64,000 nt of DNA from an uncultured archaeon. Its GTDB lineage: Archaea > Asgardarchaeota > Lokiarchaeia > Sigyniarchaeales > SOKP01. This document shows positions 27,567 through 62,700 of this stretch, in pieces. Location of the stretch: positions 16,144-80,143 of the forward strand of contig CAZGJX010000004.1 in NCBI GenBank assembly GCA_964525635.1. The letters are read 5' to 3'. The notes below the pieces were generated by a model. That model did not search any database. It was not told the origin of the DNA and saw only the letters and a list, made by a program, of their open reading frames with translations. A program made the translations under genes and the position numbers. Each line of letters starts with the position of its first letter. The stretch's first letter is position 1.

Positions 27567-28653
27567 TTAAATCTCTTTGGGACCCATTGATTTTTTTTTA
27601 TTTAAGTTATATTTTAGATTTTTTTCTTCTGTTTGTTTTGAAATACTTACTATGTCTTGTCTTTCTACATGAACTGCTGTACCACCTACAAGCTGAATTG
27701 ATTTAAGAAAAAGATCGTAAGTGAGGAGTCCTGTCTGGATTACTTTAAATAAAGCAACTCTTGTTCCTCTTTCAATATCAGATCCAGAATATCCAATTGT
27801 TAATTTTAATAAACCGCCATTATGCATTTTTCTATCAACTTCATTCCATAATAAGTTATCTTCAAACTCAGAAATGTTTCTATTTAATTTAGATTCTAAA
27901 TTTTGATGGATCTCTTTAATCTTCTTAAATTCTTTATCTAAAGAATCATGAATGCTACTATCAACACCAATATTAGCCTTCTCTATTTTATCTAAAAATG
28001 ATTCTATAATCATTTTACGTAATTCATAATTAGGAAAATTGAATCTTAAATGAAAAGTAAATCGACGCCACATTGCAGAATCAAGTTGATGAGAATGATT
28101 AGTAGCACCCACTATAGCTAAGGCTATTCCTTCATAATTAACTCGGTCAATAACCTGTAAAAATGATATGACCGCTCGTTTTATTTCTCCGACTTCATGT
28201 ATATTTGACCTTTCAGAGCCAATAGCATCAATCTCATCAAAAAATAAAACAAATGCACCATTTTCTTTGGCAATTTCAGCAGATAACTCCACAACATTTC
28301 TGATATTTTTTATAGTGTCTCCTAGTAAAGGTGATACTAATCTATCGGATTCAACTACACACATAGGAAGTTCATATTGTTTAGAAAATGCTCTTGTTAA
28401 AGATGTTTTTCCTGTGCCTGGTGGCCCATATAATAAAATAGTTAAATTCGGAGATAATTTGGTCTTTTTTAATTGTACAGAAACTTCATCATATTTTTTA
28501 AGAGCCTTGAAAAAATCTTCTAATCTCTCCTTTATTGCCTCATTTCCCTTAATATCGTCAATACTTTCCTTAATATCATCAGGTAAATAAACAGCACCAT
28601 ATTTACCTAATCTATCCTTTATTTCTTCGTCTGTATAAGTAATTTTTATGCAT
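27567..28653 (-). CDS. Classical AAA+ ATPase; 5' end needs a non-canonical start or a 1-nt correction
   Basis: The track ORF starts at MCVVESD, downstream of Walker A. The same frame upstream reads ..ITYTDEEIKDRLGKYGAVYLPDDIKES..NLTILLYGPPGTGKTSLTRAF (my translation). Walker B is VLFFDEIDAIG, followed by sensor ATN and an Arg-finger region SAMWRRF. The only ATG (28653) is in the +1 frame, ahead of an A5 run. Confidence 0.75.
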
Positions 28654-28670: not shown

Positions 28671-29909
28671 TTATTTATTTTTTTTTTCTTTATCAATTTT
28701 TTTACAATAATGTGATACTTCTTCAATTAGATCTTGAAGATTATCTATCTGGGAACCAATAAAATTAAAAATTTCTTTTCTATATTGAGGAGAATCTCTA
28801 ATTTTTGTTTTATCTAATCCAAGGTAATTTGGAAAACAGATTAATTTCATTAAATAAGGTAGAACTTTTTCATTAGTCTGAAGATCCTTAAAAATAGCAT
28901 AAAAGATATTCTCATCTGAGAGCTTCCATTTTAATATTCCCATATAGACTAAAAAAGCAAAATTCATTGCAATCCAATTTATAAGTTCCTTAGACAAAAA
29001 TCCTCTCCTTCTTGAAGCGAATGCTAGATAATATATTATAAGGGTCTCATTACTAAATTGTGGAATTAATCTATTTACTCCATCAGATTGTTTATTTTCT
29101 TTTAAATAATTATTATCAATCAATATATCAACAAATTTATTTTCTGGACCTAAAAAGATACCATCTATAACACGAAGACCTATTCTTTTAGCTATACTTT
29201 CTATAGATTCTTGTTCTGTATTAGCAATTGAATCAATGTAAGGTAAAAACATATCATTTTTCAAAATTAAAGGAAGTTCATAGTTATCTCGCTCAGGAAA
29301 GGGTCCATAATTAGGATCTAAGTTGTATAATGATGTAATGTTATTAATAATTTGATAAACTTTTGGTGATAAACCTGGAATTATAAAAAAATCTGGATTA
29401 TCTAATTCTTCTCTATAATAAGTATGAGATTTTAATAAATGTCTTTGTGATTCATAGAATTCTGATGCATAATTTAATAATTTTTCATATGTTATTTTAA
29501 TTGTATTACCCCTTGGAAATAAAATATTTTCGATGAATTTTGTTAATTTATATAAATATGTTTTTTCAAGATCTCTTTGATCTGGATTTGATATATTTCC
29601 AAGAACTGTTAAAGCATCAACAGATTCTTGGAGGAATTCAATAATATAATCTTTAATATCTATAAGTGTAATTTTATCCTTATATTTAATAATAAAATCT
29701 TTCATTATTTCATAAACATTTGATCGATACATGGCAGAGAATTCCGATAATGCACGTACTTTACGAACATTTCTTTTTTCTTCCTCTTCTCGAATTTTAT
29801 CCAGAACTTCTGTATCATACAATAAATCAGGATCTAAATCTTCGATAATTCTTCTTGTTTCTCGAAGAATCGGCCTCATATGACTAAGAAATGTTTGATA
29901 ACGTGGCAA
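28671..29909 (-). CDS. Hypothetical protein, first gene of the operon
   Basis: 412 aa, TTG start, preceded by a 530-bp AT-rich non-coding gap. I recognised no family. Its TAA stop is in the same frame as the following AAA+ reading frame and directly abuts it. Confidence 0.55.
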   Translation of the reverse strand: MPRYQTFLSHMRPILRETRRIIEDLDPDLLYDTEVLDKIREEEEKRNVRKVRALSEFSAMYRSNVYEIMKDFIIKYKDKITLIDIKDYIIEFLQESVDALTVLGNISNPDQRDLEKTYLYKLTKFIENILFPRGNTIKITYEKLLNYASEFYESQRHLLKSHTYYREELDNPDFFIIPGLSPKVYQIINNITSLYNLDPNYGPFPERDNYELPLILKNDMFLPYIDSIANTEQESIESIAKRIGLRVIDGIFLGPENKFVDILIDNNYLKENKQSDGVNRLIPQFSNETLIIYYLAFASRRRGFLSKELINWIAMNFAFLVYMGILKWKLSDENIFYAIFKDLQTNEKVLPYLMKLICFPNYLGLDKTKIRDSPQYRKEIFNFIGSQIDNLQDLIEEVSHYCKKIDKEKKNK

Positions 29910-30440: not shown

Positions 30441-32624
30441 TTATTGATTAAAATCATTATAGTTCTTAAAATAAAAAGCTAAGATTGGAATCAAATCTTT
30501 TGGAGTAATAATAACTAATTTCTTACTTTTCCATTTAGTGATTTCAATTAATGCCATTTTTAATTGAGTGTCAACAACTCTTCCAGATACAATTAATACA
30601 AAACTAATTGATTCATTAAAACATGCTTCGATAAATTGTTCTAATAAATTATCATTATTTTTAAAAGTTAATTTGCTAAAGGGGATGTCATGAATGTATT
30701 CAAGATTATCATTAGATGTTTTCTTATAACTCTTTGCAATTCCATAAATTAATTCAAGACCAGTAGAAAATTTCTGGGAAAATTCAAAATCTCCAAACTC
30801 CAATCCACTATGAGGATGTGACTGACCATTAGATAGTTTAGAAAAAATTTTAGAGATACAATCAATTTCAGAATTCTTAAGCAAATGACAATTTCTACAC
30901 TTTCCTTTGTATTCTTTGCATTTTTCTAAAATTTGTGTTATATTTTGAGTTTGAGCTTTTTGAATTGTTAGATGAAGCTCATTTATTTTAGGGATTTTTT
31001 TAAAACTTGGTAATTCGTTCCATTGATATAAAAGTTTCTTTTCATTAATAGTTCTATATAGCTTATTCTCTTTAATATAATATATCTCTTTATCGTTATT
31101 TATCAGAAATCCAATTTCTAATATTTTAAATATTTTATTAATCTCTGTTTTTAATTCTAAACTAAAGATGTATGCAAATATCTCATTTTTATTCAAATAT
31201 TGTTTATGGTTGTTTATACATTCAATTTCTATTTCTTCTGATATTTCAGTTTTGCATTGAATGCATTTTATTAATTTATCTTTTCCACTCTTTTTATTTT
31301 TTATAAAATTGGTTGAATTACAATCTTCGTTTGGACATTGAAGAATTGCATTAGAATCACTTTTTTGACATCTAGAATTAACAGAATTGATTAGAAAATC
31401 TTGAAAATAATATGCTATATCGGAAGGAAATAGAAATTCTACACATTCTATTTTTGTATTATTTTTTAAAATAATTACTTTCTCTATTAATTCTAATAAT
31501 TTTTCTTGGGCGTTCTTACTTCTAATATAATTATATAATTTTGTTCTTTTGATATAATCATGAGATCTAATATATAAACTAAAATCTTTTGTTAAAAGAA
31601 ATTCATCTTGTATTTTCATTAATTCTATTAATAACTCAATGAGCCAATCTCTGCATTTATCAATTTTAATATACTTTCCCTTTAATGAGATTTTACCAAC
31701 CTCTGAGACGTCTATTTTAATTTTCTTGGAAAATCCTTTAATACTTGTAAAATAGGTTCCCATCTTCCTTTCATATTCTTTTAAAAACGCATATATAGGC
31801 TCTTTTTGTTTTTCGGGAAATTTCTTATCAATTATTATAATAGAATCTAAATATGAATTATCAATCTCTCTTTTAGATGCAAGAGCTATTTTTATAATTT
31901 CATTAAAATCAAAAATCTTATCTATAATATCTTTCTGTAAATTAAATTTCCAAAAGACAGTTTTAAATAATTTTTCAAAAAATTTAATTATTGCTTCAAC
32001 AATTCTATAAGCTTGGCATTTTATGATAACTAAATGATTTATAATATCAATCCAAAATAATCCAAACTTTAATGAATATACATAACTTGGAATATAGTCT
32101 TTATCAAGATAATTTATTTTCTCTAAAAAATCGAATTTGAACTCTATAATTTTTTCTTTCCAAATATTTTTATTTAATAATTTAAATTCTTTAAACCTTA
32201 GATTAGATATATTATCTGCATTTTCAACTCTTTATTTTAGTGTAAATTTACAATATTCATTTAATTTCAATCCTTTAAATGATGCTCTAATTATTTTACT
32301 TAATTCAGTAGTATTTTCAAAATTATGTTCCTTATATTTATATAAGTAAAAAATAGGATTAGTACTGTCTCGAAATTGAAAAAATAATTCCTTTTCTTCA
32401 CTGATTGATAATATATTACATATTATAAAAAATTCAATGAGTTTATAATGAGGAAGATTATTAATTCTTTGCTTTGGATTTTCTACTTCTTTTTTGAAAA
32501 CTTTTAAATATTTTTTTTTTAATTCTTGTTTCGAATAGTTCTTTTTATTTAAAATTCCTATTAAATAAGAATCTGGAACTACATTCAAGAAAAAATGACG
32601 TTGAGGATTTTTGTCTAAACTCAT
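30441..32624 (-). pseudogene. 727-codon reading frame interrupted by a single in-frame TAA (32234..32232). It contains Zn-ribbon motifs and a possible C-terminal Mrr/restriction-endonuclease-like domain.
   Basis: ORFs 32232..32624 and 30441..31763 share one frame. The 156 codons between the TAA and the first Met have no stop and no ATG/GTG/TTG (my translation). Cys pairs are CPNEDC...CIQC and CRNC. The C-terminal pattern SFVLIVSGRVVDTQLKMALIEITKWKSKKLVIITPKDLIPIL resembles REase C-termini. Confidence 0.5.
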
Positions 32625-33220: not shown

Positions 33221-36200
33221 AATATTTTATAAAAATACATTATAAGTTTATTGTTTTAATAATTCTAGCTTTTTTAATTTTTAATTTTATTCCAAACTTA
33301 GATTTAATGCATTATAATGAAGATAAATTTGAATCCTCTAGCTTTACTAATGAATTATTATGCTCTAGTATAAAAAGTAATTATAATATAATTGAAGATC
33401 TCTTTAAAGATAAAATAGAACAATATTCAGAAAATAACTATTATAATCAATATTACACCCCTTCTTTACAAGGAATGTTTTATGCTCTATATATATTAGA
33501 TGTTATTGGAAAATTAAATTCAGCTAACCATACTTCAATGGTCTCCTATATAATAAATCAATATGATGAAGATTTACAATTTTTTATGGGTGATTATTCA
33601 TACCATTATTTGGACACAGACTTTAATTTAAAGTACTATTCTTTAAATTCAGTATTAGAAGTAAATTGCTATGCTGTTTTATCTCTTAATATTTTAAACA
33701 GAACTGATTTAATAAATTCAGAGAAATTTATTGATTTTATTTGGAGTTGTTTTAATCCTAATAAAGGGGGATTTATAGAACAACCATTTAATCATGATAT
33801 TCATCCATTTTTTAAATTACCAACATTAGACAACACTTATTTCGCAATTCTTACCTTAGATTTGTTAAATAATGATTGGAGTTTAAATAGAGGGGAAAAA
33901 AATAATATAACTAATTTTGTTAACAGTTTGCAAAGTGACATGAGTAGTGATATCTTCTTTGGAGGTTTTCTCAATGACAATAATGATAATTTTAATAGTC
34001 TAAATTGTTTTGAACCAAATCTTCTTTCAAGTTTTTATGCAATAAAGATTCTTGACATTTTTGGATTAAAGGAGACAATTGATATGAATAATTTCTATTC
34101 ATATTTGGGATTTTTATATGATTCAAATGAGAATTATTTTAATTTTGCTGGATTATTGCCATCTAATAATTATTCAAATTTAATCGCTAGTAGTTTAGGA
34201 TTAGATCTTTCTATTATTACTAATTATTTGAATATAAGCAAACAAGAGATTATTACATTCTTATTAGAAAATCAGAATGGTATAGGATTATGGTCTCATA
34301 CTACAGAAACCGAAACACTTCAATTAATTGATACTTTTCAAATAATCAGATCTTTAAAAGAATCAGGTAATATAGATATATTAAATGAATCTAATAAAAA
34401 TAAAATTTCTGAAGCATTATCACTTTTTACCTCTAATCATGGATATAGTATAACACCTCACACGTTTACTCTTCAATCTACTTTAAACACAGTAATAAGA
34501 TCATTTTATTTGCATGATAGAATTTCTGAATTAGAAATCCAAGATCTTTATTCAAAAATCGAGAAATCTTATTATGATTCAGATAATGATCCTAGTCGAG
34601 GATTTTATGCTTGTATAAATTTAGATAGGGCATATTCAGATTTTCGTTGTCTTCCTATAGAGTTTCATAATTTTGGAAATCATATATTCACATCAAAAAT
34701 TGATTATCCAAATGCTCAAAAACATACTTATTTAGCATTGGATTCTTTGAGAAATATTTTTAAAATGGATGATTTTTCAAGAAGACATAATCTAACTGAA
34801 TTATTGCATAGTATATTAAATTGCCAATATATGGATGAGAATTCTCCTTACTATGGGGGTTTTATCCCTTTTGAAGGATTAAACCAATTGAATACAACAA
34901 ATAAAGAAAAATTCATATTCTTAGAAAATTCTTACTATACAATCAAATGCTTAGAATTACTCTCTCAGATTCTTGGCTTAAATTCTATAACTAATATGAG
35001 TTTTAATAAAGAAGCCTTATTCAATTATTTACAAAGTAATGTAAAAGAAACAGATTCGGAAGTTTATTTTCAACCATCTTATAGCTCAGATATAGAACTT
35101 GCATTAAAAAATACGTATTTTATGATCTATATACTACAGACTCTAAACCTTTATGATCTTAACACTCTGAAAATTAAGAATTTCATTTCAAATCATTTAA
35201 ATTATGAAAATATTATTAATATCTACTATTCATATAAAATCTCTGAACTATTAAAGTTAAATTTTCCATTCGATTCTGAAAAGATATATGAATTGGTTAA
35301 ATTATTATTTGTTGAAGATATAAAAGAATTCAAAGTATCTAAAGATTTTAATGTAATTAATCAAGAAATTGTTTTATGGATAGTAGAAATGGCGAAATTT
35401 AGTCCTCTTGAAATTGATTTTGATTATCAAGAGATGATTAAATTAGGAAGTGTAAATACGATAAGATTAAAATTTCAAAACATGATTCTTAAAGAATTTG
35501 GAGATTATGTTATAATAATATATGAAAATGAGCAATTAGGTACACTTTATTTTGAGGAACAATATGATAAATCATATCAAGTAAGTTTCTATATCCCTGA
35601 AGAACCTCAATATTTTCCTTCTATAGATGGTAAAGTTAAAATTTATATAAATGGTGTCTTGACAAAAGAATTAAATATTGAAATACAGACAGAACTAGAT
35701 CAAGTAATAATAGAAAAGATCAATAAAGTAAACACAGAAATATGTTTTGAATACAATATCTCTCGACTAACTAATTCTGAATATCTCGCTTTAGGTAATT
35801 CTTCACTAAAAACAGAGATTTATTACCAAAATAATCTTATTGATATAGTTAATTTTGAAGAGGAAGTGTTTATTAACCATACTTATTATTTCCTTGAATA
35901 TAATTGTTCTTTCGAAGGTCTTTTTGAGTTTAAAATAGTATTAACTGATGATTTTTATCCCTATGGTTTAGATTTATCAATTATACCTTTTGAGGTTGAG
36001 TTTCAAAATACTGAATTAAATAATAATCTAATTTTCACTGGTCCCTTATTAGCAGTTCTATGTTTGATGCTAAGTTCAGCAATATTAATTATTTCAATCA
36101 ATTCTGGAAAATATTTAAAAAATAAGTTTTGGGTTAAAAATCCAAAAGTGAACCCCCATATAGTAAAAGAAGAAGAAGACTACAATACAATTGATAATAA

Positions 36201-41983: not shown

Positions 41984-42401
41984 ACCTATTATCCTCTATT
42001 ATTTGGTAATATCATAAATATTTCAACCAAAAAGAGTATCTAGAGAAATAAATCACTCCTAAAAAATTTTATGATGATTGATAGTAAAATCTTGGATATT
42101 TTAACATTTGTTTTCATGAAATAATATGCCAGTTTCAACATCAATATGCACCACACTACCCAATTAATATTAAAAGTATGGTTATATTTAGAAAATTTCT
42201 ATCTCTTAGAAATTTTTTATCCTCTATCTTATAGGTTTTTTTTAGAGAAGGAATAAGATGTTATATTTAAAAAAAAAGGAAAAATAAAAGAATCAGAGTA
42301 ATAGAATGAACTAGAAAAATATTTAAGATTTAGCTTCTTTTATTTAATTAGCTATTTTTGTGAAATAAAACAATTATTTAATTCAATAAATCAAAAATTA
42401 G

Positions 42402-43025
42402 GTGATAGATATAGGTAGACGAAAGAGAAAACAACAAACTTATAAGAGGATTAAAAAGTTACCTAAGATTTTCACTTGCCCACAATGATATTTGGATTTA
42501 CCAAATATTGAGGAATGTGGTGAGAAATCTGTTAAAGTTGAAAATGTTAAAAAACAAAATGGGTTTGCAAAAGTGAAATGTGGTCATTGTAGTTTGGAAA
42601 AGGAAGTATTAATTAATTCGATTTCAGAACCTGTTGATGCTTTTGGTGATTTTATTGATATTTACTATGCTGATACTGAACTTCAGAGATTGGAAAAGGG
42701 TATTTCTAAATTAAAAGAAAATAATGAATGGGGAGAACTTGGTTTAGCTTATTCTTTATTATCGAATTTATGCAGAATTAAAGCCGCTCAACTTTTAGAA
42801 GAAGAGGAGGATGTTGATATGAATGAAGTTACTGAATGGAAAACTAAGGGGGAAAAATATAAAAGATTAGAAAAGGATGCTTTATTAAAATTAGAAACTG
42901 AAGAATTAGAAGAAGGGATCAAAACTGATGAAGACTCTTTATTTTCAGAACATGATGAAAGTGATATTCGTAAAAAGCGTGATATTGAAGATGTTTTCGA
43001 AGATCCAGGTTTTTTAGAATTTTAA
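42402..43025 (+). CDS. elf1: Transcription elongation factor Elf1 homologue, split by a 30-nt BHB-type mini-intron: exons 42402..42485 and 42516..43025
   Basis: Exon 1 (GTG 42402) encodes MIDIGRRKRKQQTYKRIKKLPKIFTCPQ, followed by UGA. After removal of 42486..42515 the protein reads FTCPQCGEKSVKVENVKKQNGFAKVKCGHCSLEKEVLINSISEPVDAFGDFIDIYY. This matches the Elf1 pattern F.CP.C.hEKSV...C..C...I..LsEPVDvY.DW.D. The track ORF's TTG start (42492) lies inside the intron. Confidence 0.8.
42486..42515 (+). other. Putative bulge-helix-bulge (BHB) mini-intron within elf1 mRNA
   Basis: Central helix CCAC (42480-83) / GAGG (42510-13), 3 bp plus one A.A mismatch. 3-nt bulges AAU (42484-86) and AAU (42514-16). 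9-bp inner stem GAUAUUUGG/CCAAAUAUU with loop AUUUA. An in-frame UGA sits at 42486-88. Cleavage after the 2nd bulge nucleotide gives CAA|UGU = Q-C. Confidence 0.7.
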
Positions 43026-45639: not shown

Positions 45640-46263
45640 CTAACCTAAATCAGAGGTAGCATCTTTTAATTTTATCCATAATTTACTAACCCTACTTTTA
45701 ACTTCTAATAAATGCTCGTTTTTTTTTAAGAGAATATCTCTTGCTCTATCGAATTCTCTTTGTAAATCATTTTGTTCTTGATCAAGTTCATCTACTTTCT
45801 CAGGTTCAATCATCTTGTTTTTTACTTTATCTATATCAATAGCTTTTTTAATAACAGCTTTCCTCTTTCCGGCAACATCATTAAGAGCATCAGCAAATTC
45901 TCTCCTTATATTAATTAAATACTCCTTTTCTATTGTTAGATCTTTTAAAGCTTCTAAATATTTTTTATTAGTTTCCATGTGTGTGTTATTAAATTGAATT
46001 AAACTTTCTAACAGTTTTACATCTTCATCTTTGACATTAGATTTATGTTCCCTTGCAAGCATTTTAATTTGTTTATAAACATCTCTCATTGTTCTATTCA
46101 TAGAATCTCGAGTAATATTCATATCTAAAATATTTTCTGCAAATTTTTGCTGTGTTTTAACTATTTTACCTTGTTGTTTGGAAAGATCATTGAGTGTTTT
46201 TACAAACTCTTTTTCAAGGCGACTTAAATCAAGTTCATCCTCTGTTGTTATAATAGGACACAT
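45640..46263 (-). CDS. Coiled-coil protein of unknown function
   Basis: 207 aa, heptad-rich and charged throughout. Confidence 0.5.
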   Translation of the reverse strand: MCPIITTEDELDLSRLEKEFVKTLNDLSKQQGKIVKTQQKFAENILDMNITRDSMNRTMRDVYKQIKMLAREHKSNVKDEDVKLLESLIQFNNTHMETNKKYLEALKDLTIEKEYLINIRREFADALNDVAGKRKAVIKKAIDIDKVKNKMIEPEKVDELDQEQNDLQREFDRARDILLKKNEHLLEVKSRVSKLWIKLKDATSDLG

Positions 46264-46372
46264 AATTGATCACAATTATTTATTATACAATATTTAATTT
46301 GAATGAATACAATAACGTATTATAAAAAACATAGCCTATTATATTTTATTCTTAATTTCAAGATTTATAAGA

Positions 46373-47422: not shown

Positions 47423-48496
47423 TCATATTTTATATCTTAAAACAGCTACTATTGATCCTAAATTATCTAGCTGTTCACCAGCAGGATGATTAGTATTTAA
47501 AATATTTATTTTACCACCGATTTTTTCTACATCATTAATTATACCTTCAATATGTAGTTTTTTTGATTTATCAGATCCACGAATAAGCGTATCGGTTATA
47601 AATAATTGTTCAGTCGCACCCATTTGTGTAGCATTTTCAATTTCTTCGAATCCTATTGCAATTAGGTCAGGATTTTTTCCAAGTAAAGTTATAATTTTTT
47701 CAACTTTCTCAGTATCTTCTAAAGCAATTACTTTATTTTTCAATTTAACCAATTCTTTAGATTTTAATGTCTCATATATCGCACTTTCAGTTCCTGAACT
47801 AGCAAAAATGCTCCTTATTTTATTGAGATAATTATCATTAGTTTTTTCTTTTAAATAAGCAATAAAATGATCTTTAATATTACCTGGTCCACACATAATA
47901 ATAAGATTCACTTTATTATCAGTGATATTAGTATCGATTATTGATTTAATATCTTCATAAAATTCATGAAGATATTTATTACGCATAGATTGCTCATAGC
48001 GTTTTCCCGGAATATTTTTACTAACTGTCGCTATTTTATTATTACTATAATTTGTAATTATAAAAACATTAGCCAAACCGGTCTCAATAGCAATAATAAG
48101 CATGATAAAATTAGATGATAATTTTGAAGTCTTTTTTATTCTTTTAAGGTCATGTTTCATCCAAATATCTTTAATAATTGTGAGTGTCTGGTTTAGTTCT
48201 ATGTTAAATGTATGGTATGACCCAAAACTTACAAAATCATCAGGACCTTCCATTATCTTTCCTTTTACACGTAAACGGTTTGTAAATTCATGAAATGATA
48301 CATCTTCAACGTCCAGTGTTAGTTTCATAACTTTTCTTTCACCAGCAGCACCCTCATGTAATACCACTCTTCTCTGAGTAAGAGCAATAACCGTATCTCC
48401 TTTTGAAATTATATTGTATAATGTCCATAAATCATTCAGATCTTCGACCTTAAGTGTAAATTCTCCTTTTTTTTTATTCTGTTCAAGAATTTTCAA
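47423..48496 (-). CDS. pelA: Pelota/Dom34 mRNA surveillance protein
   Basis: 357 aa. N-terminal GEFTLKVEDLNDLWTLYNII, typical of Pelota, and a C-terminal eRF1-like domain. Confidence 0.85.
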   Translation of the reverse strand: MKILEQNKKKGEFTLKVEDLNDLWTLYNIISKGDTVIALTQRRVVLHEGAAGERKVMKLTLDVEDVSFHEFTNRLRVKGKIMEGPDDFVSFGSYHTFNIELNQTLTIIKDIWMKHDLKRIKKTSKLSSNFIMLIIAIETGLANVFIITNYSNNKIATVSKNIPGKRYEQSMRNKYLHEFYEDIKSIIDTNITDNKVNLIIMCGPGNIKDHFIAYLKEKTNDNYLNKIRSIFASSGTESAIYETLKSKELVKLKNKVIALEDTEKVEKIITLLGKNPDLIAIGFEEIENATQMGATEQLFITDTLIRGSDKSKKLHIEGIINDVEKIGGKINILNTNHPAGEQLDNLGSIVAVLRYKI

Positions 48497-48637
48497 GATT
48501 TTTTGGTTTTATGAAATTATTTATAGTAAAATAATATAAAATACCAGATAAGATTAATTCTAATTTAAGATAATTAGATAAATTAAAAAACATTAAAAAA
48601 AAAAGAAAATATAAACAATAAAATAATTATTTTAACT

Positions 48638-48796
48638 TTAGCCTTTCTCCTCAAGAGCGGCCTTAACTTTCTCAAGCTCTTCTTGTCGTTTCTTCTTTTC
48701 TTCTTCCCTTCTTTTTAATTCTGCATCATCTACTTTATCTAAAGGGACGCCTTTTTTAATTTGGTCTTTTAGTTCATCATCAAGTTGTGGAGCCAC
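48638..48796 (-). CDS. Small (52 aa) charged protein, below the ORF-track cutoff
   Basis: GTG start. My translation is MAPQLDDELKDQIKKGVPLDKVDDAELKRREEEKKKRQEELEKVKAALEEKG*. It is noticeably more GC-rich than the surrounding 700-bp otherwise empty spacer. Confidence 0.4.
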   Translation of the reverse strand: MAPQLDDELKDQIKKGVPLDKVDDAELKRREEEKKKRQEELEKVKAALEEKG

Positions 48797-49203
48797 TTTT
48801 ATTAAACACCTTTATTTAATATTTTAAGATTATATTTATCGAAAAATTATAATTACCAATATAATAATAGTACCATTATTAAAGGTTTTCGAAAAGAGAA
48901 TCAATAGGATACATTTAAAAAGAGCCTAAATTGAACCCTTTCTTCATACCTCAAGGGATAATTTATAAAGTTTTATAACCTAGATTTTTAATTTTATTAA
49001 AATAGTAAATTAACTAATCTTTTTTAAGTATGATTAGTTATATATTGATTGTAGTTTAGTACCTAATTCATGAAATCTTAGACTTTTACCATCAATCTGA
49101 TAATAATAACTCTTTTCATATAACTTATTAAAATTGATATAGAAAATTATTCCTTAGATACAATTATTTATTCATATATAAAAATATAATTTTAATTTAT
49201 ACA

Positions 49204-50346
49204 TTATTTTAATTCATATTTAAATATCCTAGCAGGGATTTTTTCAGTTATTTGTTTATATTCTTTTCTTTGAAAAGGTAAAGTTTCTAAAATATAAGGT
49301 TGTAAGATGAGTTTTTCAATCAAATCTAATATAGAATCTTCAATTAAAATATAATATGGTAATTCAATAGATGTTTTATTAAACTGGATGAGTTTTTTGG
49401 ACAATCTGGATTTATGAATTAAGATTTCATATATTTTTTTTAAATTTTCATCATTACCCTCAATTAAACCATATAATAAAAGGCCTTCTTCTGTAATTGT
49501 TTCATAAGGTTTTCTTATATTTTTAGCCCTTTGTAAATAACGATTTTTTAATTGATAGTAGTCTTTTGCTCTAATTGAACAGAAATGAATGTTAAGAGAG
49601 TTTATTTTTGGACCCATTTCTTTCATGATTTCAAGAGCATTTTCCTTGCTATTCTTTACAGATGCAATTGTATTTTCTTTCAATTCATATCCTCTTTCTT
49701 GCAAAGATTGGCTATTTGGAAAACAATATTCAAATTCATTTAAATTAATAAAATCTGCTCCAATACTATCCAAATAAAGAATAAATTGTTTTAGATCATT
49801 TACGTATGCATCATTAGGAATTATTGGAACTTCTGCACCAACAGAAATCCCCTTATTCATTGCATATTTAATATTTTTCCATTTATCTTTGGGAGGATGA
49901 AATCTGATTTCATCTAGACCTGCATTTATGAGTTCATTTGCTATTAAATCTGAAAAATTTAATCCATTAGTATATAAATGAATATGGAATTTATTCCCCA
50001 TAATTTTTTTAAGGAATTTAATATAATCAAGAGTTTTGTTGAAGTTTTCTTTTGTTAATGGTTCTCCTCCAGTAAGACTAATGCCTTTAGCGTTTATTTT
50101 TGTTAATTCATCAATAATATCTTCTTTTGAAAAAATTCGTATTTCATCTATATATGAAATATCTTTATCACGCCTTTTTTCAGAGATTGGACAATACCAA
50201 GAACAATGATTTGGTTTTTGACATATTCCATTTAAAAATAACACTGCTTTTACTCCTTTTAGACAGTATTTACATCCCTTGGGGATTCCTTTTTTTTTTA
50301 AAAAAAAGTTACCTTCAGCTGATTTAATAATATTACTTTTTCTCAT
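49204..50346 (-). CDS. Radical SAM-related protein (pyruvate formate-lyase activase-like, COG2108-type)
   Basis: 380 aa with Cys-rich N-terminus CKYC...CQKPNHCSWYC and the motif ISLTGGEPL. Confidence 0.6.
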   Translation of the reverse strand: MRKSNIIKSAEGNFFLKKKGIPKGCKYCLKGVKAVLFLNGICQKPNHCSWYCPISEKRRDKDISYIDEIRIFSKEDIIDELTKINAKGISLTGGEPLTKENFNKTLDYIKFLKKIMGNKFHIHLYTNGLNFSDLIANELINAGLDEIRFHPPKDKWKNIKYAMNKGISVGAEVPIIPNDAYVNDLKQFILYLDSIGADFINLNEFEYCFPNSQSLQERGYELKENTIASVKNSKENALEIMKEMGPKINSLNIHFCSIRAKDYYQLKNRYLQRAKNIRKPYETITEEGLLLYGLIEGNDENLKKIYEILIHKSRLSKKLIQFNKTSIELPYYILIEDSILDLIEKLILQPYILETLPFQRKEYKQITEKIPARIFKYELK

Positions 50347-53322: not shown

Positions 53323-53772
53323 CTATATATCAAAAATTACTTGAATTTCAACATTATTATTTCTAATTTCAATATTCATATATGAATATGTTATTGCTTT
53401 AACTTCAGTACCAATCTCATGTTTTTCTTTATTAAATATTTCTCCTTTAAGATTAGCTTCTAATTCGAATTGGTCCTCAACTTTTTTAATAAATTTGAGT
53501 TTAATTTGACTAAATAATAATCTCTCTACATCAAAAATATATAATAATTCTGATAGAAAATCAAATAAAAGTGCTTCTCTATCCTCAGATACAATCTTTA
53601 TTGATTTTGATTTCACTTTAAAGATTTTATTTAAATTCGGAGTAATAGTCTCCATTAATGCATATGCTGCTTGAGCAAATGCTTCTTCTAAATCTTTACC
53701 CCAGCATCTTACTTTTACATCTGCTGTATGTTCTTCAAACTTAAATCCTGCTTGTTTCATCCCTAATTCCAA
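53323..53772 (-). CDS. Archease (RtcB ligase/methyltransferase cofactor)
   Basis: N-terminal FEEHTADVKV motif. The size is ~145 aa. The likely start is MKQAGF at 53760. Confidence 0.85.
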   Translation of the reverse strand: MELGMKQAGFKFEEHTADVKVRCWGKDLEEAFAQAAYALMETITPNLNKIFKVKSKSIKIVSEDREALLFDFLSELLYIFDVERLLFSQIKLKFIKKVEDQFELEANLKGEIFNKEKHEIGTEVKAITYSYMNIEIRNNNVEIQVIFDI

Positions 53773-53897: not shown

Positions 53898-54380
53898 ATA
53901 ACAGTAAGGAAGAAATTTTCAAATCAAGAGATTAGACTACATCAATATTTTTATAATAAGACAGGAACATTTCCTCAAAATATAATTATCAGTAATGATT
54001 TTATTTTTTTTTTTGTTGACAATGAAGATTTTTTTTCTGTTAATGTATATCTATCATTAATGAGAAAAGATTTAAAAAAAAAAAAGGTTCTGATAATAAG
54101 AAACGAGAAAAAACTGATTAAACTATTATTTAGTTTTTTTCCAGACATTTATATTCATGATATTCAGATATATTACAATACTTCCCCCAAGGAACTGAAG
54201 GCAATAATTCTTTTTTTAACATTTGAAGAAAGAGGTATTGCTATTGGAAAGAATGGAAATTATATTAAAGCTGTCAATAAAATTTTTCAAAATAATATTA
54301 TTCTTCAAAATAATAAAATTTCAATCAAAATAAAATGTGATCTTCTATATTTATATGAAGATAGAAAAATCCTTTTATAA
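53898..54380 (+). CDS. nusA: Archaeal NusA-like two-KH-domain protein; 5' end unresolved (T12 homopolymer)
   Basis: KH GxxG motif ERGIAIGKNGNYIKAV. The frame is open 60 codons upstream of the track's ATG (54060). It encodes ..EIRLHQYFYNKTGTFPQNIIISNDFIFFFV, which resembles the archaeal NusA N-terminal KH1. There is no in-frame ATG/GTG/TTG. ATGs at 53857 and 53870 come into frame with a +1 or -1 change in the T12 run (53880-53891). Confidence 0.6.
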   Translation: MTVRKKFSNQEIRLHQYFYNKTGTFPQNIIISNDFIFFFVDNEDFFSVNVYLSLMRKDLKKKKVLIIRNEKKLIKLLFSFFPDIYIHDIQIYYNTSPKELKAIILFLTFEERGIAIGKNGNYIKAVNKIFQNNIILQNNKISIKIKCDLLYLYEDRKILL

Positions 54381-54481: not shown

Positions 54482-55255
54482 TTGGCAAAACCAAATATAT
54501 TAAATGAATCTGAAATGAGACATAGAAAAATAGCTGAGATATTAGCAATATCATTTGGAATTTTATTTTTAATTCATTTCCTTATTATTTCAATATTCTT
54601 TTCTTGGGCAGATTGGTCAGCAACTTTAATATTTTCCCTTCTTTTTATCATACCTGCTTATATTTCTAATGCAGGAATGGTTATTGTAGGAGGAGGAAAA
54701 CCTATTGATGGTGGCAAGAATTTTATCGATGGCAGACGTTTATTTGGTGATCATAAGACTTGGAAAGGATTTATATTTGGTCCTTTATATATAGGTATTC
54801 CAATTTCAATAGCAATTTTTATTGTATTTATCCTTTTTTGGCCAAATATCTATGATATAATACAGTCCGCTTCAAATATAGGAATGTATAAATTATATGA
54901 TAATCCTAATATGTATGAATATTATTTTGTTGGGATTGGATATCCCATAGGATTTATATCTATAGTGATAAGGATTTTTTTATGTAGTTATGGGGCTTGT
55001 TTCGGAGATCTTATCGGTTCTTTTCTTAAAAGAAGGTTTGATATAGAGAGTGGTAAACCTTTTTGGATAGTAGATCAATTGGATTTTGCGGTTTTTAGTA
55101 TACTATTTGCATCATTACCTGCATTATTTTTTCCAAATCAATTCTTAATTCTAGATATCAATATATTTATTTCACTCTTAATTTTAACACCAGCAGTGAG
55201 CATTATAGCAAATACTATAGCTTATTTAATAGGTGTTAAAGATGTACCTTGGTAA
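54482..55255 (+). CDS. carS: CDP-archaeol synthase
   Basis: 257 aa polytopic membrane protein with FGDHKTWKGF and GDLIGSFLKRR, the DUF46/CarS family motifs. Confidence 0.8.
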   Translation: MAKPNILNESEMRHRKIAEILAISFGILFLIHFLIISIFFSWADWSATLIFSLLFIIPAYISNAGMVIVGGGKPIDGGKNFIDGRRLFGDHKTWKGFIFGPLYIGIPISIAIFIVFILFWPNIYDIIQSASNIGMYKLYDNPNMYEYYFVGIGYPIGFISIVIRIFLCSYGACFGDLIGSFLKRRFDIESGKPFWIVDQLDFAVFSILFASLPALFFPNQFLILDINIFISLLILTPAVSIIANTIAYLIGVKDVPW

Positions 55256-59757: not shown

Positions 59758-62700
59758 ATGGTTGTAATGAGCAAAAATGTTGAAGAATACTTCAATAATA
59801 TTCAAATGAAGGTAAAAGAATGTTATGATTTAGCAGAAATTGCACGAAACAAGGGTTTGGATCCTGAAACTTTTGTTGAATCACCTCAAGCAAAAGATTT
59901 AGCTGGCAGAGTAGAAAAACTGATAGGACCAGAAGGAGTAGCAGAATTAATTCGTTTACTAAAAGCTCAAGGCAAATCAGAGGATATGATTGTTTTTCAA
60001 GTTGTATCTGATATTTTGGAAAGAAAAATTGGAGATATTGAGAAATTAGAAGATCGGGTAGAAAGAGCAATAAGAGTAGGATTAGCAATAAAAACTATGG
60101 GTGTCGTAAGTGCTCCATTAGAAGGAATTTCAAAAATTCTAATTAAAAAGGACCAACAAGGAAAAAGTTATCTATCATTATACTTCGCAGGACCTATTCG
60201 AGCAGCTGGAGGTACAACAGCGGGATTATGTGTTTTAATTGCAGATTTCGTTAGGAAAAAATCGAATATCCCTAAATATGAAGCAACAGAAGGAGAAATT
60301 GGACGATATGTGGAAGAAATTAAACTCTATGATAGAAGAGTACATTTGCAATATCCTTCAACTAATAATGAAATAAGATTTGCTGTTGAACATCTTCCTG
60401 TAGAAATTAATGGTGATTCTACAGAAGATGAAGAAGTTTCTGCTTTTAGAGACCTTCCAAGAGTTGATACGAATAATATTCGCGGAGGGGCTTGTCTTGT
60501 TTTAAATGATGGTATTTTATCAAAAGCTAAAAAACTTCTTAAAATTGCCAAATTGATGGATTTGAAAGGATGGGAATGGTTAGCAAATTTAAAAAGTATT
60601 TCACACAATAGTGATAAAAATTTAACAATTAACAAAGAAGATAATATAATTGAAAAAAGTGTAACACCAAATCCAAAATATATAGCAGATATAATCGCAG
60701 GAAGACCCGTATTTAGCCACCCATCTCGTATTGGAGGCCATAGATTAAGATATGGAAGGTCACGAAATACTGGATTGGCAGCAGGAGGAATGCATCCTGT
60801 ATCAATGATATTGTTGGATAAATTTATTGCAATAGGAACTCAACTGAGAATTGAAAGACCAGGTAAGAGTACTAGTGTGTGTCCAGTAACTTCCATTGAA
60901 ACTCCAATTGTAAAATTAAAGAATGGGAATGTTATTCGAATTGATTCAATGAATAAAGCTGAGAAAATATTTCCTATGATTAAAAAGGTACTTTTTATTG
61001 GAGATATTATTTTTGGTTATGGAGAATTTGCAGAAAATAATCATCAATTAATCCCTTCTGGATATGTTGAGGAATGGTGGGTATTAGAATTTGAAAATGA
61101 GATAAATAAGAAGGAAAATAAAAATCATAAATACAAAAAATATATAGATAATCCATTTGATAATATTCCAACAGCCGAATTAGCAATTGAACTTTCTTTA
61201 GAATATAATATACCTTTACATCCTAAGTATACAGATTATTGGGGGAATTTAGAGGTTAATGAACTTGAAATACTTCGAGAAGCTTTTGGAAAAAGTTATA
61301 TTAAAAATGAGAATTCTATAAGATTAGAAAATGAACAATCTATTAGGAAAATCCTTGAAAAAGCTTTTGTACTTCATAAAATTAAAGATAATAAAATTTT
61401 ATTCAGTTCGGATATGAATAAGGTTTATGAGAAAATATTCAATTTATCAGATTATAAATCTATAAAACCTGATAAAAAAGATGATGTTTTTACTTATTTT
61501 AGTAAGATAACTTCTATTAAAATTAAGAACAAGGCCCCTTATTTTATTGGGTCTCGAATGGGGCGTCCTGAAAAATCTGAAAGAAAAACTATGAAAGGAA
61601 TTCATTCATTATTTCCTCTAAGCGATGTTGTTGGTAGTTCTCGGTTATTTGAAAAAGCAATAGAAAATACTAAAATAAAAAATGATGATTTTGATTCGAG
61701 AAAATATGATAAAAAAAGAACTTTGAGAAATGCTGAAGAAAATAAAACTGAAGTAGGTAAAATAAAAATTGATGTATGTAGAAGGATATGTCCTAAATGT
61801 AAAAGTATTAATATATTTAATACATGCTCAAAATGTAAATCTCATACGGATTTAACATCAATTTGTATTAATTGTAAAAAACTTTATCCTGCAGTTGATC
61901 CAGATGAAAAAAAACTATGTCCTCAATGTAAACAACCATTAAAAGCATCATTTGAAAAATCATTTGATATTAAATCACATATGGACTCTGTGTTAAAAAA
62001 ACTTCAAATCACCTTTCCAAAAAAAATTAAAGGGATTATTGGATTAACTAATGCATTTAAAGTACCTGAACCTGTAGAGAAAGGTATTTTAAGGGCAAGG
62101 AATGGTGTTTTGGTTTATAAAACGGCAGAAGTTCGATATGATGCTACAGATATTCCCTTAACTCATTTTAAACCAAAAGAAATAGGAATTACAATCAATA
62201 AACTCAAGGAATTAGGTTATGAATATGACTATAAGGGATCACCTCTTGTTGATGATGAGCAAATTATCGAACTACATGTACAAGATATCCTTCTTTCAGA
62301 TGACTGTGCGGAATATCTTATAAAAGTATCAAAATTCTTAGATGAAGAGTTAGAATACTTCTACCAAATGAAAAGATTTTATAACGTTAAAGAACGGGAT
62401 GATCTTATAGGACATCTCACCGTTGGGCTTGCTCCACATACAAGCGCAGGAATCATCGGAAGAATTATTGGATTCTCACCTGCTCGTTCGATTTATGCTC
62501 ATCCTTATTGGCATGCTGCGAAGCGCAGGAACTGCGACGGTGATGAAGATGCAGTCATGCTCCTCTTAGATCCCTTACTTAATTTTTCTAGAAATTATTT
62601 ACCAAGTAAGATTGGTGGGAGAATGGATGCCACACTCGTTATTGGTACTCTATTAGATCCTAATGAAATTGATAGCGAAGCACATAATATTGATACTTTA

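What the first reader, a model, noticed from the sequence alone, without database searches (positions are those of the whole stretch)
42402..42530. A second 30-nt BHB mini-intron with an in-frame UGA splits the first CxxC zinc knuckle of an Elf1 homologue
Seen in sequence:
- A frame opening at GTG 42402 encodes MIDIGRRKRKQQTYKRIKKLPKIFTCPQ and then hits UGA (42486-88).
- The same frame continues as YLDLPNIEE-CGEKSVKV...
- Removing 42486..42515 (30 nt) yields FTCPQCGEKSVKVENVKKQNGFAKVKCGHCS...SEPVDAFGDFIDIYY. This is the Elf1 zinc-ribbon signature: CxxC-x-EKSV, CxxC, then EPVD.
- The insertion folds as a BHB. The inner stem is 9 bp (GAUAUUUGG/CCAAAUAUU) with loop AUUUA.
- The central helix is CCAC/GAGG, 3 Watson-Crick pairs and one A.A mismatch. 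Both 3-nt bulges read AAU.
- The outer helix is CGUU/GUGG, mostly G.U pairs.
- Cleavage after the 2nd bulge nucleotide gives CAA|UGU, exactly the junction needed.
- The ORF-track start (TTG 42492) lies inside the intron and would delete the first zinc ligands.
Basis: partly seen in the sequence, partly recalled or inferred. Interest (0 to 1): 0.85.

Follow-up and report, generated by a model that had tools for sequence, protein, structure and literature searches.

The report
Mini-intron splitting an archaeal Elf1 gene
A 30-base insert that interrupts the transcription-factor gene Elf1 of a Lokiarchaeon (Asgard archaea) has every sequence hallmark of an intron cut out of the mRNA by the tRNA-splicing enzymes, a kind of protein-gene intron so far reported in archaea essentially only for one gene (cbf5) of Crenarchaeota.

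Summary

- **Gene restored.** Removing 42486-42515 turns a 28-codon stub plus a truncated ORF into a full-length Elf1. The Pfam PF05129 score rises from 39.8 to 69.7 bits, covering profile positions 1-78 of 79. The product is colinear with more than 100 contiguous Promethearchaeota (Lokiarchaeota) orthologues and with eukaryotic Elf1.
- **Same site in relatives.** Sixty loci (44 distinct sequences) carry a 28, 30, 31 or 32-nt insert at exactly this codon boundary. Most of these lengths would frameshift the gene if not removed.
- **Structure.** All fit one bulge-helix-bulge (BHB) register: 88% of cells are paired against 30-42% when the register is slid, and 74 compensatory cells are seen against 24 in shuffles.
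- **Clean presence/absence.** Near-identical strains differ by precise presence or absence of the insert.
- **A second case.** A 30-nt BHB intron of the same build splits the RNase HII gene in this window (14021-14050, minus strand).

The BHB motif alone is not specific in this 26% GC DNA. Most likely mechanism: EndA cleavage followed by RtcB/Archease ligation. This is a new member of a known kind. Splicing itself is inferred, not shown.

The parts
42402..42485 (+). Elf1 exon 1: 28 codons, MIDIGRRKRKQQTYKRIKKLPKIFTCPQ. GTG 42402 is the only canonical start after the TAG at 42399-401. ATA 42411 aligns with the ATG/TTG start codon of relatives.
   Evidence: exon 1 supplies Pfam profile positions 1-27; colinear with MGRRKRK...FTCPxC of the orthologues. 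Against L005, exon 1 has 10 synonymous differences and 1 amino-acid difference, counted by eye.
42486..42515 (+). 30-nt BHB mini-intron UGAUAUUUGGAUUUACCAAAUAUUGAGGAA, phase 0, with an in-frame UGA at 42486-88. Because AAUG occurs at both junctions, the boundaries could be drawn up to 2 nt further upstream or downstream with the same product.
   Evidence: Single copy in the window.
42516..43025 (+). Elf1 exon 2: CGEKSVKV...DPGFLEF plus the stop codon.
42471..42479 (+). Outer helix h, 5' strand, in exon 1 (codons Phe-Thr-Cys). The core is UUGC 42476-79, which pairs with GUGG 42517-20. The extension UUCAC 42471-75 pairs with GUGAG 42520-24, with U42476 bulged in that register.
   Evidence: RNAalifold recovers the core helix de novo. 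MFE folds of the relatives, and codon choice differing between genes with and without the intron.
42480..42483 (+). Central helix H, 5' strand: CCAC (Pro codon plus the first base of the Gln codon).
   Evidence: The pair next to the 5' bulge co-varies with the x codon: C:G, A:U or G:C.
42484..42486 (+). 5' bulge AA|U. The 5' splice site lies after 42485.
   Evidence: Relatives have AAU, AUA or AAA here.
42487..42509 (+). Inner helix h' plus loop: GAUAUUUGG / AUUUA / CCAAAUAUU (9 bp, 5-nt loop).
   Evidence: helices 3 and 4 show compensatory changes in 6 of 7 pairs.
42510..42513 (+). Central helix H, 3' strand: GAGG, inside the intron.
42514..42516 (+). 3' bulge AA|U. The 3' splice site lies after 42515.
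42517..42524 (+). Outer helix h, 3' strand, in exon 2 (codons Cys-Gly-Glu).
42492..42494 (+). TTG that a mechanical ORF or gene caller takes as the start codon. It lies inside the intron and gives a 177-aa product lacking the first CxxC.
   Evidence: database entry P0001 is this truncated call.

Best explanation
The 30 nt at 42486-42515 are an archaeal bulge-helix-bulge (BHB) intron inside the coding sequence of the transcription elongation factor Elf1, in a Promethearchaeota (Lokiarchaeota-type Asgard) genome.

In the pre-mRNA:
- Exon 1 (codons Phe-Thr-Cys) pairs with exon 2 (codons Cys-Gly-Glu) to form an outer helix.
- The last bases of exon 1 (CCAC) pair with the 3' end of the intron (GAGG) to form the short central helix.
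- The rest of the intron forms a 9-bp hairpin.
- This presents two 3-nt bulges (AA|U and AA|U).

Inferred steps:
1. The tRNA-splicing endonuclease EndA cuts after the second nucleotide of each bulge.
2. The RtcB ligase, helped by Archease, joins the exons and probably circularises the 30-nt intron.
3. The spliced mRNA encodes a 197-aa Elf1 with an intact C26-x2-C29...C50-x2-C53 zinc ribbon.
4. Unspliced mRNA ends at the UGA after 28 codons, so functional Elf1 depends on splicing.

The intron is old within this clade. It is repeatedly and precisely lost, or possibly regained.

Shown here: the gene structure, the conserved position, the structure with covariation, and the precise presence/absence polymorphism. 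Inferred: the enzymes, the splicing itself, and any regulatory role.
For: 1. **Homology.** The spliced product scores 69.7 bits on PF05129 over profile positions 1-78 of 79. The ORF from TTG 42492 scores 39.8 bits over positions 28-78. The product aligns without a gap across the junction to Elf1 in Pol II structures such as 6IR9_M. It is colinear with more than 100 contiguous 192-195 aa orthologues.

2. **Same site in relatives.** 17 of 74 species-representative genome loci carry an insert between the x codon and the second Cys codon of CPxC. All 42 of 42 metagenome pattern hits do too. That is 60 loci and 44 distinct sequences, with lengths 28 (1), 30 (26), 31 (14) and 32 (3). Lengths that are not multiples of three leave both exon frames intact only if the insert is removed.

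3. **Structure.** On alignment A1, 88.3% of cells are paired against 30-42% in slid registers. There are 74 compensatory cells against 23.9 +/- 4.3 in shuffles (0 of 500 reach the observed value). Eight of 15 pairs show changes on both sides. The central-helix pair next to the 5' bulge tracks the x codon as C:G, A:U or G:C. MFE folds of most relatives give the exon-exon helix, a bulge, the hairpin and a bulge unaided.

4. **Exon 1 is under purifying selection.** Against L005 it has 10 synonymous differences and 1 non-synonymous, read.

5. **Precise presence/absence.** The spliced protein of L101 (intron present) is identical to P0039, encoded by the intronless L123 and L124. L092 and L125 have about 99-100% identical DNA. 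In both pairs the difference is exactly the predicted 30 or 31 nt.

6. **Exon codon choice fits the helix.** Where the intron is present, TTC is used in 17 of 18 genes against 18 of 51 without it. The Thr third base is a pyrimidine in 17 of 18 against 24 of 51. GGT is used in 17 of 18 against 24 of 51.

7. **Precedent and machinery.**
   - BHB introns of 16-44 bp in crenarchaeal cbf5 are spliced (PMC2738675).
   - That L1 loop is the insert linked to broad substrate specificity, including relaxed BHBs (PMC5829648, PMC6379350).
   - An Archease gene lies in the window.

8. **A second case.** A 30-nt BHB intron of the same build splits RNase HII in this window and in relatives.
Against: - No RNA evidence of any kind: no spliced transcript, no circular intron, no junction peptide.
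- In the window's own copy the central helix has an A.A mismatch. In most N-type relatives the pair next to the 5' bulge is A.A. The motif is therefore a relaxed BHB, not a strict one.
- The single-sequence fold is only marginally better than shuffles (z = -1.79). Its MFE is not the BHB, although the BHB lies within 0.7 kcal/mol.
- RNAalifold de novo recovers only the outer helix and the apical hairpin.
- BHB-like motifs of equal quality occur 8 times in the window. At least some are false, for example inside CarS and a prenyltransferase repeat.
- The codon-choice contrast is not corrected for phylogeny. A sister-pair test over ten pairs is not significant (p = 0.38). Only the two near-identical pairs show clustering of differences near the junction (6 of 16 differences in 25 of 300 nt, p = 0.001).
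- EndA and RtcB were not looked for in this genome, because they lie outside the window.
Confidence: 0.9

Rival explanations
1. Programmed translational bypass of the phage T4 gene 60 type. The ribosome takes off at the codon before the insert, is helped by the adjacent stop codon and the hairpin, hops 28-32 nt, and lands just before the UGY Cys codon. No RNA is cut.
For: In the window the take-off codon CAA is followed at once by UGA and a 9-bp hairpin. In the E/D-type relatives the take-off and putative landing codons are identical (GAA...GAA, GAU...GAU) and UGA follows directly.
Against: - Take-off and landing codons do not match in the window (CAA against GAA), in L004-L006 (CAA against GAU) or in the roughly 23 N-type variants (AAU against GAU, GAA or GAC).
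- In the N-type and L005-type there is no stop directly after the take-off codon.
- Bypass does not predict pairing of exon 1 with the 3' end of the gap or with exon 2, yet those pairs co-vary or are kept.
- It also does not predict clean genomic loss of exactly the gap.
Confidence: 0.03
2. The gene is broken. Either it is a pseudogene, or the cell makes only the truncated protein from TTG 42492 without the first zinc knuckle, and the insert is a neutral insertion scar.
For: Gene callers produce exactly such truncated proteins: P0001 (177 aa) and P0022, P0025 and P0034 (162 aa). Unspliced, the frame stops at the UGA.
Against: - Exon 1 stays open and almost unchanged at the protein level despite many synonymous changes.
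- The insert is kept at one site in 44 distinct variants across three subclades, with compensatory changes.
- Inserts of 28, 31 and 32 nt would put the downstream 165 codons out of frame with the conserved exon 1, yet both frames are maintained.
- The four-Cys ribbon is the defining feature of the family.
Confidence: 0.03
3. The UGA is recoded, as selenocysteine at the Cys position (CPQ-U) or by read-through. The 10 extra codons are translated as a loop inside the zinc knuckle.
For: The UGA sits exactly where the second Cys codon is expected. Some Asgard archaea use selenocysteine (PMC11227280, title and abstract seen).
Against: - The closest relatives have no UGA there. L005 reads AAU UUA AUA GAC UUA CUA UAA and the N-type has UAA in the third codon.
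- Eighteen of 44 variants have lengths that shift the frame.
- The orthologues show no 10-aa insertion.
Confidence: 0.01
4. A small mobile DNA element (a MITE-like palindromic insert) has independently hit a hotspot in Elf1.
For: The insert is a hairpin and is patchily distributed among close relatives. It is present or absent between near-identical strains, with a patch of flanking substitutions.
Against: - Single copy in the window.
- No target-site duplication in L005-type copies.
- Insert sequences follow the Elf1 subclades and share motifs, which suggests descent rather than repeated hits.
- This reading does not remove the need for RNA-level excision to make the protein. It is a view on origin, not an alternative mechanism.
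Confidence: 0.03

Closest known systems
BHB intron in the cbf5 (pseudouridine synthase) pre-mRNA of Crenarchaeota (Watanabe et al. 2002; Yokobori et al. 2009, PMC2738675)
   Same: - A short intron (16-44 bp there, 28-32 nt here) inside a protein-coding gene.
- A BHB or relaxed BHB at the exon-intron borders.
- The host has a hetero-oligomeric, broad-specificity EndA.
- Patchy distribution with gain and loss among relatives.
- The protein is non-functional unless the intron is removed.
   Different: - A different gene (Elf1, and RNase HII nearby).
- A different phylum (Asgard/Promethearchaeota, mesophilic, 26% GC).
- At least two such introns within 64 kb.
- Presence/absence polymorphism between strains with identical proteins.
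- Splicing of cbf5 was shown by RT-PCR; here it is only inferred.
Archaeal pre-tRNA and pre-rRNA BHB introns and processing stems cut by EndA and joined by RtcB
   Same: The hBHBh' architecture is the same. The expected chemistry, a 2',3'-cyclic phosphate and a 5'-OH with the intron circularised, is also background knowledge rather than something tested here.
   Different: The substrate is an mRNA coding region, so exon sequence is constrained both by the protein and by the helix. The outer helix is built from codons (UUC ACY UGC with GYG GUG AA).
BHB intron in the 5' UTR of Haloferax volcanii HVO_1309 mRNA (PMC7714728)
   Same: An mRNA that is an EndA substrate.
   Different: That intron lies in the untranslated leader. 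This one interrupts the reading frame inside a zinc-binding motif.
Unconventional HAC1/XBP1 mRNA splicing in eukaryotes (IRE1 cleavage, tRNA-ligase/RtcB joining)
   Same: Protein-enzyme, spliceosome-independent removal of a tiny intron (26 nt in XBP1, from my own background knowledge) from a coding region. Exons are joined by the tRNA ligase. The splice decides which protein is made.
   Different: The nuclease is different (IRE1 rather than EndA). The RNA signal is different (two 7-nt loops rather than a BHB). It is stress-regulated, and there is no evidence of regulation here.
Translational bypass in phage T4 gene 60
   Same: A short non-coding gap with a stop codon and a hairpin inside an otherwise colinear gene.
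   Different: The defining matched take-off and landing codons are absent in most variants. The exon-intron helices co-vary. See the rival explanations.

Membership tests
Archaeal BHB intron (EndA/RtcB-spliced) | Two 3-nt bulges on opposite strands separated by a 4-bp central helix | tested here: met
   The bulges are 42484-86 and 42514-16, separated by CCAC/GAGG. In the window this is 3 of 4 pairs with an A.A mismatch, so it is a relaxed form. The helix is 4 of 4 in L060, L062, L098 and L106. Over 44 variants the central helix is 76% paired.
Archaeal BHB intron (EndA/RtcB-spliced) | Flanking helices h and h' on both sides of the bulges | tested here: met
   The outer helix is 4 of 4 pairs, extendable to about 8-9 bp, and 96.6% paired over the variants. 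The inner hairpin is 9 bp. Its apical helix is 98% paired and shows compensatory changes.
Archaeal BHB intron (EndA/RtcB-spliced) | Cleavage at the symmetric bulge positions yields the functional mature sequence | tested here: met
   The junction CAA|UGU gives CPQCGEKS. This is identical in layout to 57 of the 74 related genome loci, which have no insert, and it is exactly the sequence missing in near-identical intronless strains.
Archaeal BHB intron (EndA/RtcB-spliced) | Structure maintained by compensatory change | tested here: met
   74 compensatory cells against 23.9 in shuffles (0 of 500 shuffles reach the observed value). Slid registers are 30-42% paired against 88.3% for the proposed register.
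Archaeal BHB intron (EndA/RtcB-spliced) | Intron actually excised from the RNA and the exons ligated | not testable with these tools
   No transcript data are available. This needs RT-PCR or RNA-seq, or an in vitro EndA assay.
Archaeal BHB intron (EndA/RtcB-spliced) | Host encodes a splicing endonuclease able to cut relaxed BHBs, plus RtcB | not tested
   Neither gene was found in the window. [quoted passage not shown] The RtcB cofactor Archease is in the window at 53323-53772.
Elf1/ELOF1 transcription elongation factor (Pfam PF05129) | Profile match above the curated threshold over the whole domain | tested here: met
   69.7 bits against a cut-off of 29.8, over profile positions 1-78 of 79, after splicing. 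PDB Elf1 chains match at E = 2.5e-8.
Elf1/ELOF1 transcription elongation factor (Pfam PF05129) | Four-cysteine zinc ribbon (CxxC ... CxxC) | tested here: met
   C26, C29, C50 and C53 in the spliced product. Without splicing the first pair is split or lost.
Elf1/ELOF1 transcription elongation factor (Pfam PF05129) | Binds the RNA polymerase elongation complex | not testable with these tools
   Function is inferred from homology only.
Programmed translational bypass (T4 gene 60 type) | Identical take-off and landing codons flanking the gap | tested here: not met
   Window: CAA against GAA. L004-L006: CAA against GAU. N-type: AAU against GAU, GAA or GAC. Matched only in the E/D-type.
Selenocysteine or stop-codon recoding | Conserved in-frame UGA that is read through, with the downstream frame unchanged | tested here: not met
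   UGA is absent in L005 and in the N-type. Eighteen of 44 variants shift the frame.
Spliceosomal, group I or group II intron | GU...AG boundaries, or a ribozyme core of hundreds of nucleotides | tested here: not met
   None of the equivalent boundary choices gives GU...AG, and 30 nt is too short for a ribozyme. No Rfam family matches in the window.

The most novel reading that the evidence does not exclude
This Lokiarchaeial lineage carries a whole population of roughly 30-nt BHB mini-introns in protein-coding genes. At least two occur among about 55 genes in this window: Elf1 and RNase HII. Both sit inside catalytic or metal-binding motifs and share one build (9-bp stem, 5-nt loop). At that density a genome would hold tens to about a hundred. 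They are precisely gained or lost between strains and removed by the tRNA-splicing machinery. That would be the first intron-rich protein-coding gene set in the archaeal relatives of eukaryotes. It would also be systematically mis-annotated in current Asgard MAGs as truncated genes.
Probability: 0.4. Interest if true: 0.9.

Novelty: new member of a known kind. Interest (0 to 1): 0.72.

Why it matters
**How rare this is.** A 2020 study still counted the crenarchaeal cbf5 mRNA as the only further BHB intron reported in archaea, beside the 5'-UTR intron it described in Haloferax (PMC7714728). Seven full-text searches turned up no report for Asgard archaea.

**What is new.**
- The phenomenon now extends to the archaeal lineage closest to eukaryotes.
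- It affects a eukaryote-type transcription factor.
- A second case lies 28 kb away, so it is probably not a one-off.
- There is a natural presence/absence series among near-identical strains. This makes intron loss, intron gain, and the co-adaptation of codons with an RNA structure directly testable.

**Practical consequence.** Gene callers truncate these genes. The 162-177 aa 'Elf1' entries and the 208-209 aa 'RNase HII' entries checked here lack their zinc knuckle or their DEAGRG active-site motif; the 212-aa call (P0206) starts inside the insert, in frame, and picks up only the GRI of that motif with no Asp or Glu. Asgard proteomes used in eukaryogenesis studies therefore contain systematic errors that a splice-aware annotation would repair.

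**Open biological question.** How do translation and splicing of the same mRNA coexist in a cell without a nucleus? Here the outer helix is made of codons 23-26 and 29-31, so a translating ribosome would disrupt it.

Tried and rejected
**1. De novo BHB scans of the window.**
- In 26% GC DNA the motif is non-specific, with thousands of loose matches.
- Strong-looking sites that proved false:
  - 54638-54701 (4/4, 4/4, 10-bp stem) lies inside a continuous CDP-archaeol synthase frame.
  - 34081-34110 lies in a prenyltransferase repeat.
  - 59982-60014 lies in PolD DP2, where the Pfam N-domain shows no extra residues.
  - 31898-31921 lies in a continuous 595-aa ORF.
  - 54038-54067 lies in a T-rich non-coding stretch upstream of the 54060 ORF.
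  - 46255-46288 would extend a 207-aa ORF whose relatives already have that length.
- Screening ORFs for Pfam matches truncated at the N-terminus worked better and found the RNase HII intron.

**2. Single-sequence thermodynamics.** Only a marginal signal.

**3. RNAalifold.** It recovered only part of the structure.

**4. A phylogeny-aware test of codon co-adaptation on ten sister pairs.** Not significant.

**5. ARAGORN and Rfam.** Nothing found in the window.

**6. Phage database.** No match.

**7. Transcript evidence.** I looked for full-length database proteins identical to spliced products. These turned out to be intronless genomic alleles, not cDNA.

**8. Selenocysteine, read-through, bypass, pseudogene and MITE readings.** Considered and set aside for the reasons given under the rival explanations.
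Full report
**What is in the sequence.**
- The window is 25.7% GC and densely packed with archaeal genes.
- From GTG 42402 a frame reads MIDIGRRKRKQQTYKRIKKLPKIFTCPQ and stops at UGA 42486-88. The same frame resumes as YLDLPNIEECGEKSVKV... and runs to 43025.
- Deleting 42486-42515 (30 nt) gives a 197-aa protein.
- The strand order is that of a canonical archaeal hBHBh' motif: outer, central, bulge, inner, then inner, central, bulge, outer.

**The gene.**
- The spliced product scores 69.7 bits on Pfam PF05129 (Elf1; cut-off 29.8) over profile positions 1-78 of 79. The ORF from TTG 42492 scores 39.8 bits over positions 28-78.
- It aligns without a gap across the junction to Elf1 chains in Pol II elongation complexes (6IR9_M, E = 2.5e-8).
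- A database search gave 513 homologues. Almost all of the best 120 are 192-195 aa Promethearchaeota/Lokiarchaeota proteins that begin MGRRKRK...FTCPxCGEKSVKV, that is, contiguous across the site.
- The exceptions are short calls: P0001 (177 aa, the window's own ORF) and P0022, P0025 and P0034 (162 aa, 87-88% identical).

**Relatives with the insert.**
- The DNA of the short calls (L001-L003) has a 30-nt insert at exactly the same codon boundary but with another sequence (AAUUUAAUAGACUUACUAUAAAAUGAGGAU) and an in-frame UAA. It folds the same way.
- A scan of one genome per species returned 77 loci. Seventeen of the 74 usable ones carry an insert at this boundary: 30 nt in 8, 31 nt in 6, 32 nt in 2 and 28 nt in 1.
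- A degenerate DNA pattern that demands 24-36 extra bases between the two Cys codons hit 42 metagenome contigs. All 42 are Elf1 genes with the insert.
- Together this is 60 loci and 44 distinct variants.
- Eighteen of the 44 variants have a length that is not a multiple of three. Both exon frames nevertheless stay open and conserved, so the insert has to be skipped or removed for the protein to be made.

**Structure.**
- In one fixed register every variant has the outer helix, with pairs 2-4 formed in 44 of 44.
- The central helix is formed at 3-4 of 4 positions in all but two variants. Two 3-nt A/U-rich bulges and an inner hairpin are present throughout.
- On alignment A1, 88.3% of cells are paired against 30-42% when the 3' partners are slid by 1-3 columns.
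- There are 74 compensatory cells against 23.9 +/- 4.3 in shuffles (0 of 500 reach the observed value), and 8 of 15 pairs show changes on both sides.
- The central-helix pair next to the 5' bulge follows the amino acid at x: C:G when x is Gln, A:U (or A.A) when Asn, G:C when Glu.
- RNAalifold on its own recovers the outer helix and the apical hairpin.
- MFE folds of most relatives show the whole arrangement, including a longer exon-exon helix UUUCACY-UGC with GYG-GUGAAA. For the window's copy the BHB fold is 0.7 kcal/mol above the MFE.
- Genes with the intron prefer the codons that build this helix. TTC is used in 17 of 18 against 18 of 51; the Thr third base is a pyrimidine in 17 of 18 against 24 of 51; GGT is used in 17 of 18 against 24 of 51.
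- That contrast is not corrected for phylogeny, and a sister-pair test is not significant.

**Caveat on the motif.**
- BHB-like patterns are common in this AT-rich DNA. About 7,400 loose matches occur, and 8 are as good as this one against about 3 in shuffles.
- Several strong ones lie inside ordinary continuous genes.
- The single-sequence fold has z = -1.79.
- The case therefore rests on homology and comparison, not on the motif.

**Evolution.**
- On a neighbour-joining tree of the proteins the intron occurs in three subclades. These are the window with L004-6, an 'E' group and an 'N' group. Intron-free sisters are interleaved, and the intron is absent from the distant Lokiarchaeum ossiferum and Promethearchaeum syntrophicum genes.
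- The spliced protein of L101 is identical to P0039, which is encoded without the insert in L123 and L124. Downstream DNA is 99.3-99.4% identical.
- L092 and L125 are identical over at least 100 nt upstream and 99.4% identical downstream.
- In both pairs the only length difference is exactly the predicted intron. Silent differences cluster in the bases flanking the site. Six of 16 differences lie in 25 of 300 nt, p = 0.001.
- Exon 1 of the window against L005 shows 10 silent and 1 replacement difference, read.
- This is the pattern of a functional, vertically inherited intron that is lost (or regained) precisely, as proposed for cbf5 (PMC2738675).

**Mechanism (inferred).**
- By analogy with cbf5 and with tRNA and rRNA processing, EndA would cut in both bulges. 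RtcB with Archease would join the exons and circularise the 30-mer.
- An Archease gene lies at 53323-53772.
- Unspliced mRNA would give a 28-aa peptide, so Elf1 output depends on splicing.
- Whether this is regulatory, as once suggested for cbf5, is unknown.
- The outer helix consists of codons 23-26 and 29-31, so translation and BHB formation should compete.

**Rivals.**
- Translational bypass fits the E-type variants superficially (GAA UGA ... GAA). It fails in the window, in L004-6 and in the N-type, where the codons are unmatched and no adjacent stop is present. It also does not predict the exon-intron pairing or the clean genomic deletions.
- Recoding of the UGA is excluded by relatives that lack a UGA and by the frameshifting lengths.
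- Pseudogene or truncated-protein readings are contradicted by the conservation of exon 1 and of the insert.
- A MITE-like origin is possible but is not an alternative to RNA removal. The sequence is single-copy in the window.

**Second intron.**
- The RNase HII ORF (13372-14001, minus strand) matches Pfam only from profile position 15.
- Upstream, MDDHLICGIDEAGS* is followed by a 30-nt insert at 14021-14050. Removing it restores GIDEAG|RGPVLGPMV.
- It has a CGGG/CCCG central helix, bulges AG|U and AA|A, a 9-bp stem and a 5-nt loop.
- Relatives L128, L130 and L131 have 30-nt inserts at the same site, with a compensatory change in the central helix (C:G to A:U in L130).
- A scan for frame-repairing BHBs of 24-36 nt singles out just these two sites, the only candidates with a 9-bp inner stem.

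**Novelty.**
- Within the searchable library, the only archaeal mRNA BHB introns described are cbf5 in Crenarchaeota and a 5'-UTR intron in Haloferax (PMC7714728, PMC2738675).
- Seven searches found nothing on Asgard protein-coding genes.
- I therefore file this as a new member of a known kind, with real interest because of the lineage, the second case nearby and the strain-level polymorphism.
- Confidence that it is a BHB intron removed at the RNA level is about 0.9. The missing piece is any RNA or protein evidence.

Noticed in passing
window 14021-14050 (minus strand); exon 1 from ATG 14091; ORF-track 13372-14001: A second 30-nt BHB mini-intron splits the catalytic DEAG|RG motif of RNase HII. 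It has the same build as the Elf1 intron (9-bp stem, 5-nt loop) and a GC-rich central helix CGGG/CCCG. Relatives L128, L130 and L131 have 30-nt inserts at the same site with a compensatory change. Database entries of 208-212 aa are truncated calls.
   Followed up: partly
L101 vs L123/L124; L092 vs L125-L127: Near-identical strains differ by exact presence or absence of the Elf1 intron. The few silent differences cluster within about 20 nt of the insertion site. In L101 vs L124, similarity ends abruptly upstream of the start codon. This suggests recombination or conversion tracts linked to intron loss or gain.
   Followed up: partly
window 53323-53772 (minus strand): An Archease gene (PF01951, 149.7 bits), the cofactor of the RtcB RNA ligase that would seal the spliced exons.
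   Followed up: no
window 27567-28593 and 28671-29909 (minus strand): An AAA+ ATPase frame whose Walker A motif lies upstream of the called ATG. It has no ATG, GTG or TTG before that motif. It is in frame with the preceding 412-aa ORF across a single TAA in an A-rich stretch. A perfect 9-bp hairpin (AGGTAAATA-N10-TATTTACCT) lies just downstream. It could be a non-canonical start, a larger intron or read-through. Unresolved.
   Followed up: partly
window 42399-42413: The codon aligned with the ATG/TTG start of Elf1 relatives is ATA (42411), preceded by AGGTGA at Shine-Dalgarno distance. The only canonical start, GTG 42402, lies inside that AGGTGA. An A/T-rich TATA-like box lies about 25 nt upstream of the GTG, which may mean a leaderless mRNA.
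   Followed up: no
window 30441-32228 and 27567-28593 (minus strand): The mechanical ORF list gives starts (31763, 28364) well inside longer open frames. The 30441 frame is open for 595 codons from a GTG near 32228. ORF-track starts in this window are therefore not always the longest possible.
   Followed up: yes
window 54638-54701, 34081-34110, 59982-60014: Very good-looking BHB motifs (up to 4/4 + 4/4 pairs with a 10-bp stem) sit inside continuous, homologous coding sequence: CDP-archaeol synthase, a prenyltransferase repeat and PolD DP2. They are false positives and show how unspecific the motif is at 26% GC.
   Followed up: yes
window 42640-43025 (Elf1 residues ~80-197): This Lokiarchaeial Elf1 carries a C-terminal extension of about 115 aa, largely acidic, ending in a conserved DPGFLEF. 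It is conserved across the clade and has no counterpart in the PDB Elf1 matches, whose aligned stretches stop at about residue 83 of this protein.
   Followed up: no
window 17607-18381 and 48496-49204: Two unusually long stretches (about 770 and 710 nt) have no ORF of 90 aa or more. ARAGORN finds no tRNA and Rfam no family anywhere in the 64 kb. Intron-disrupted tRNAs or other RNAs could be hidden there.
   Followed up: no
L023 (DATKTW010000134.1): A contig carrying this archaeal Elf1 with its intron is filed in a MAG labelled 'Candidatus Nanopelagicaceae bacterium'. It is evidently a mis-binned archaeal contig.
   Followed up: no
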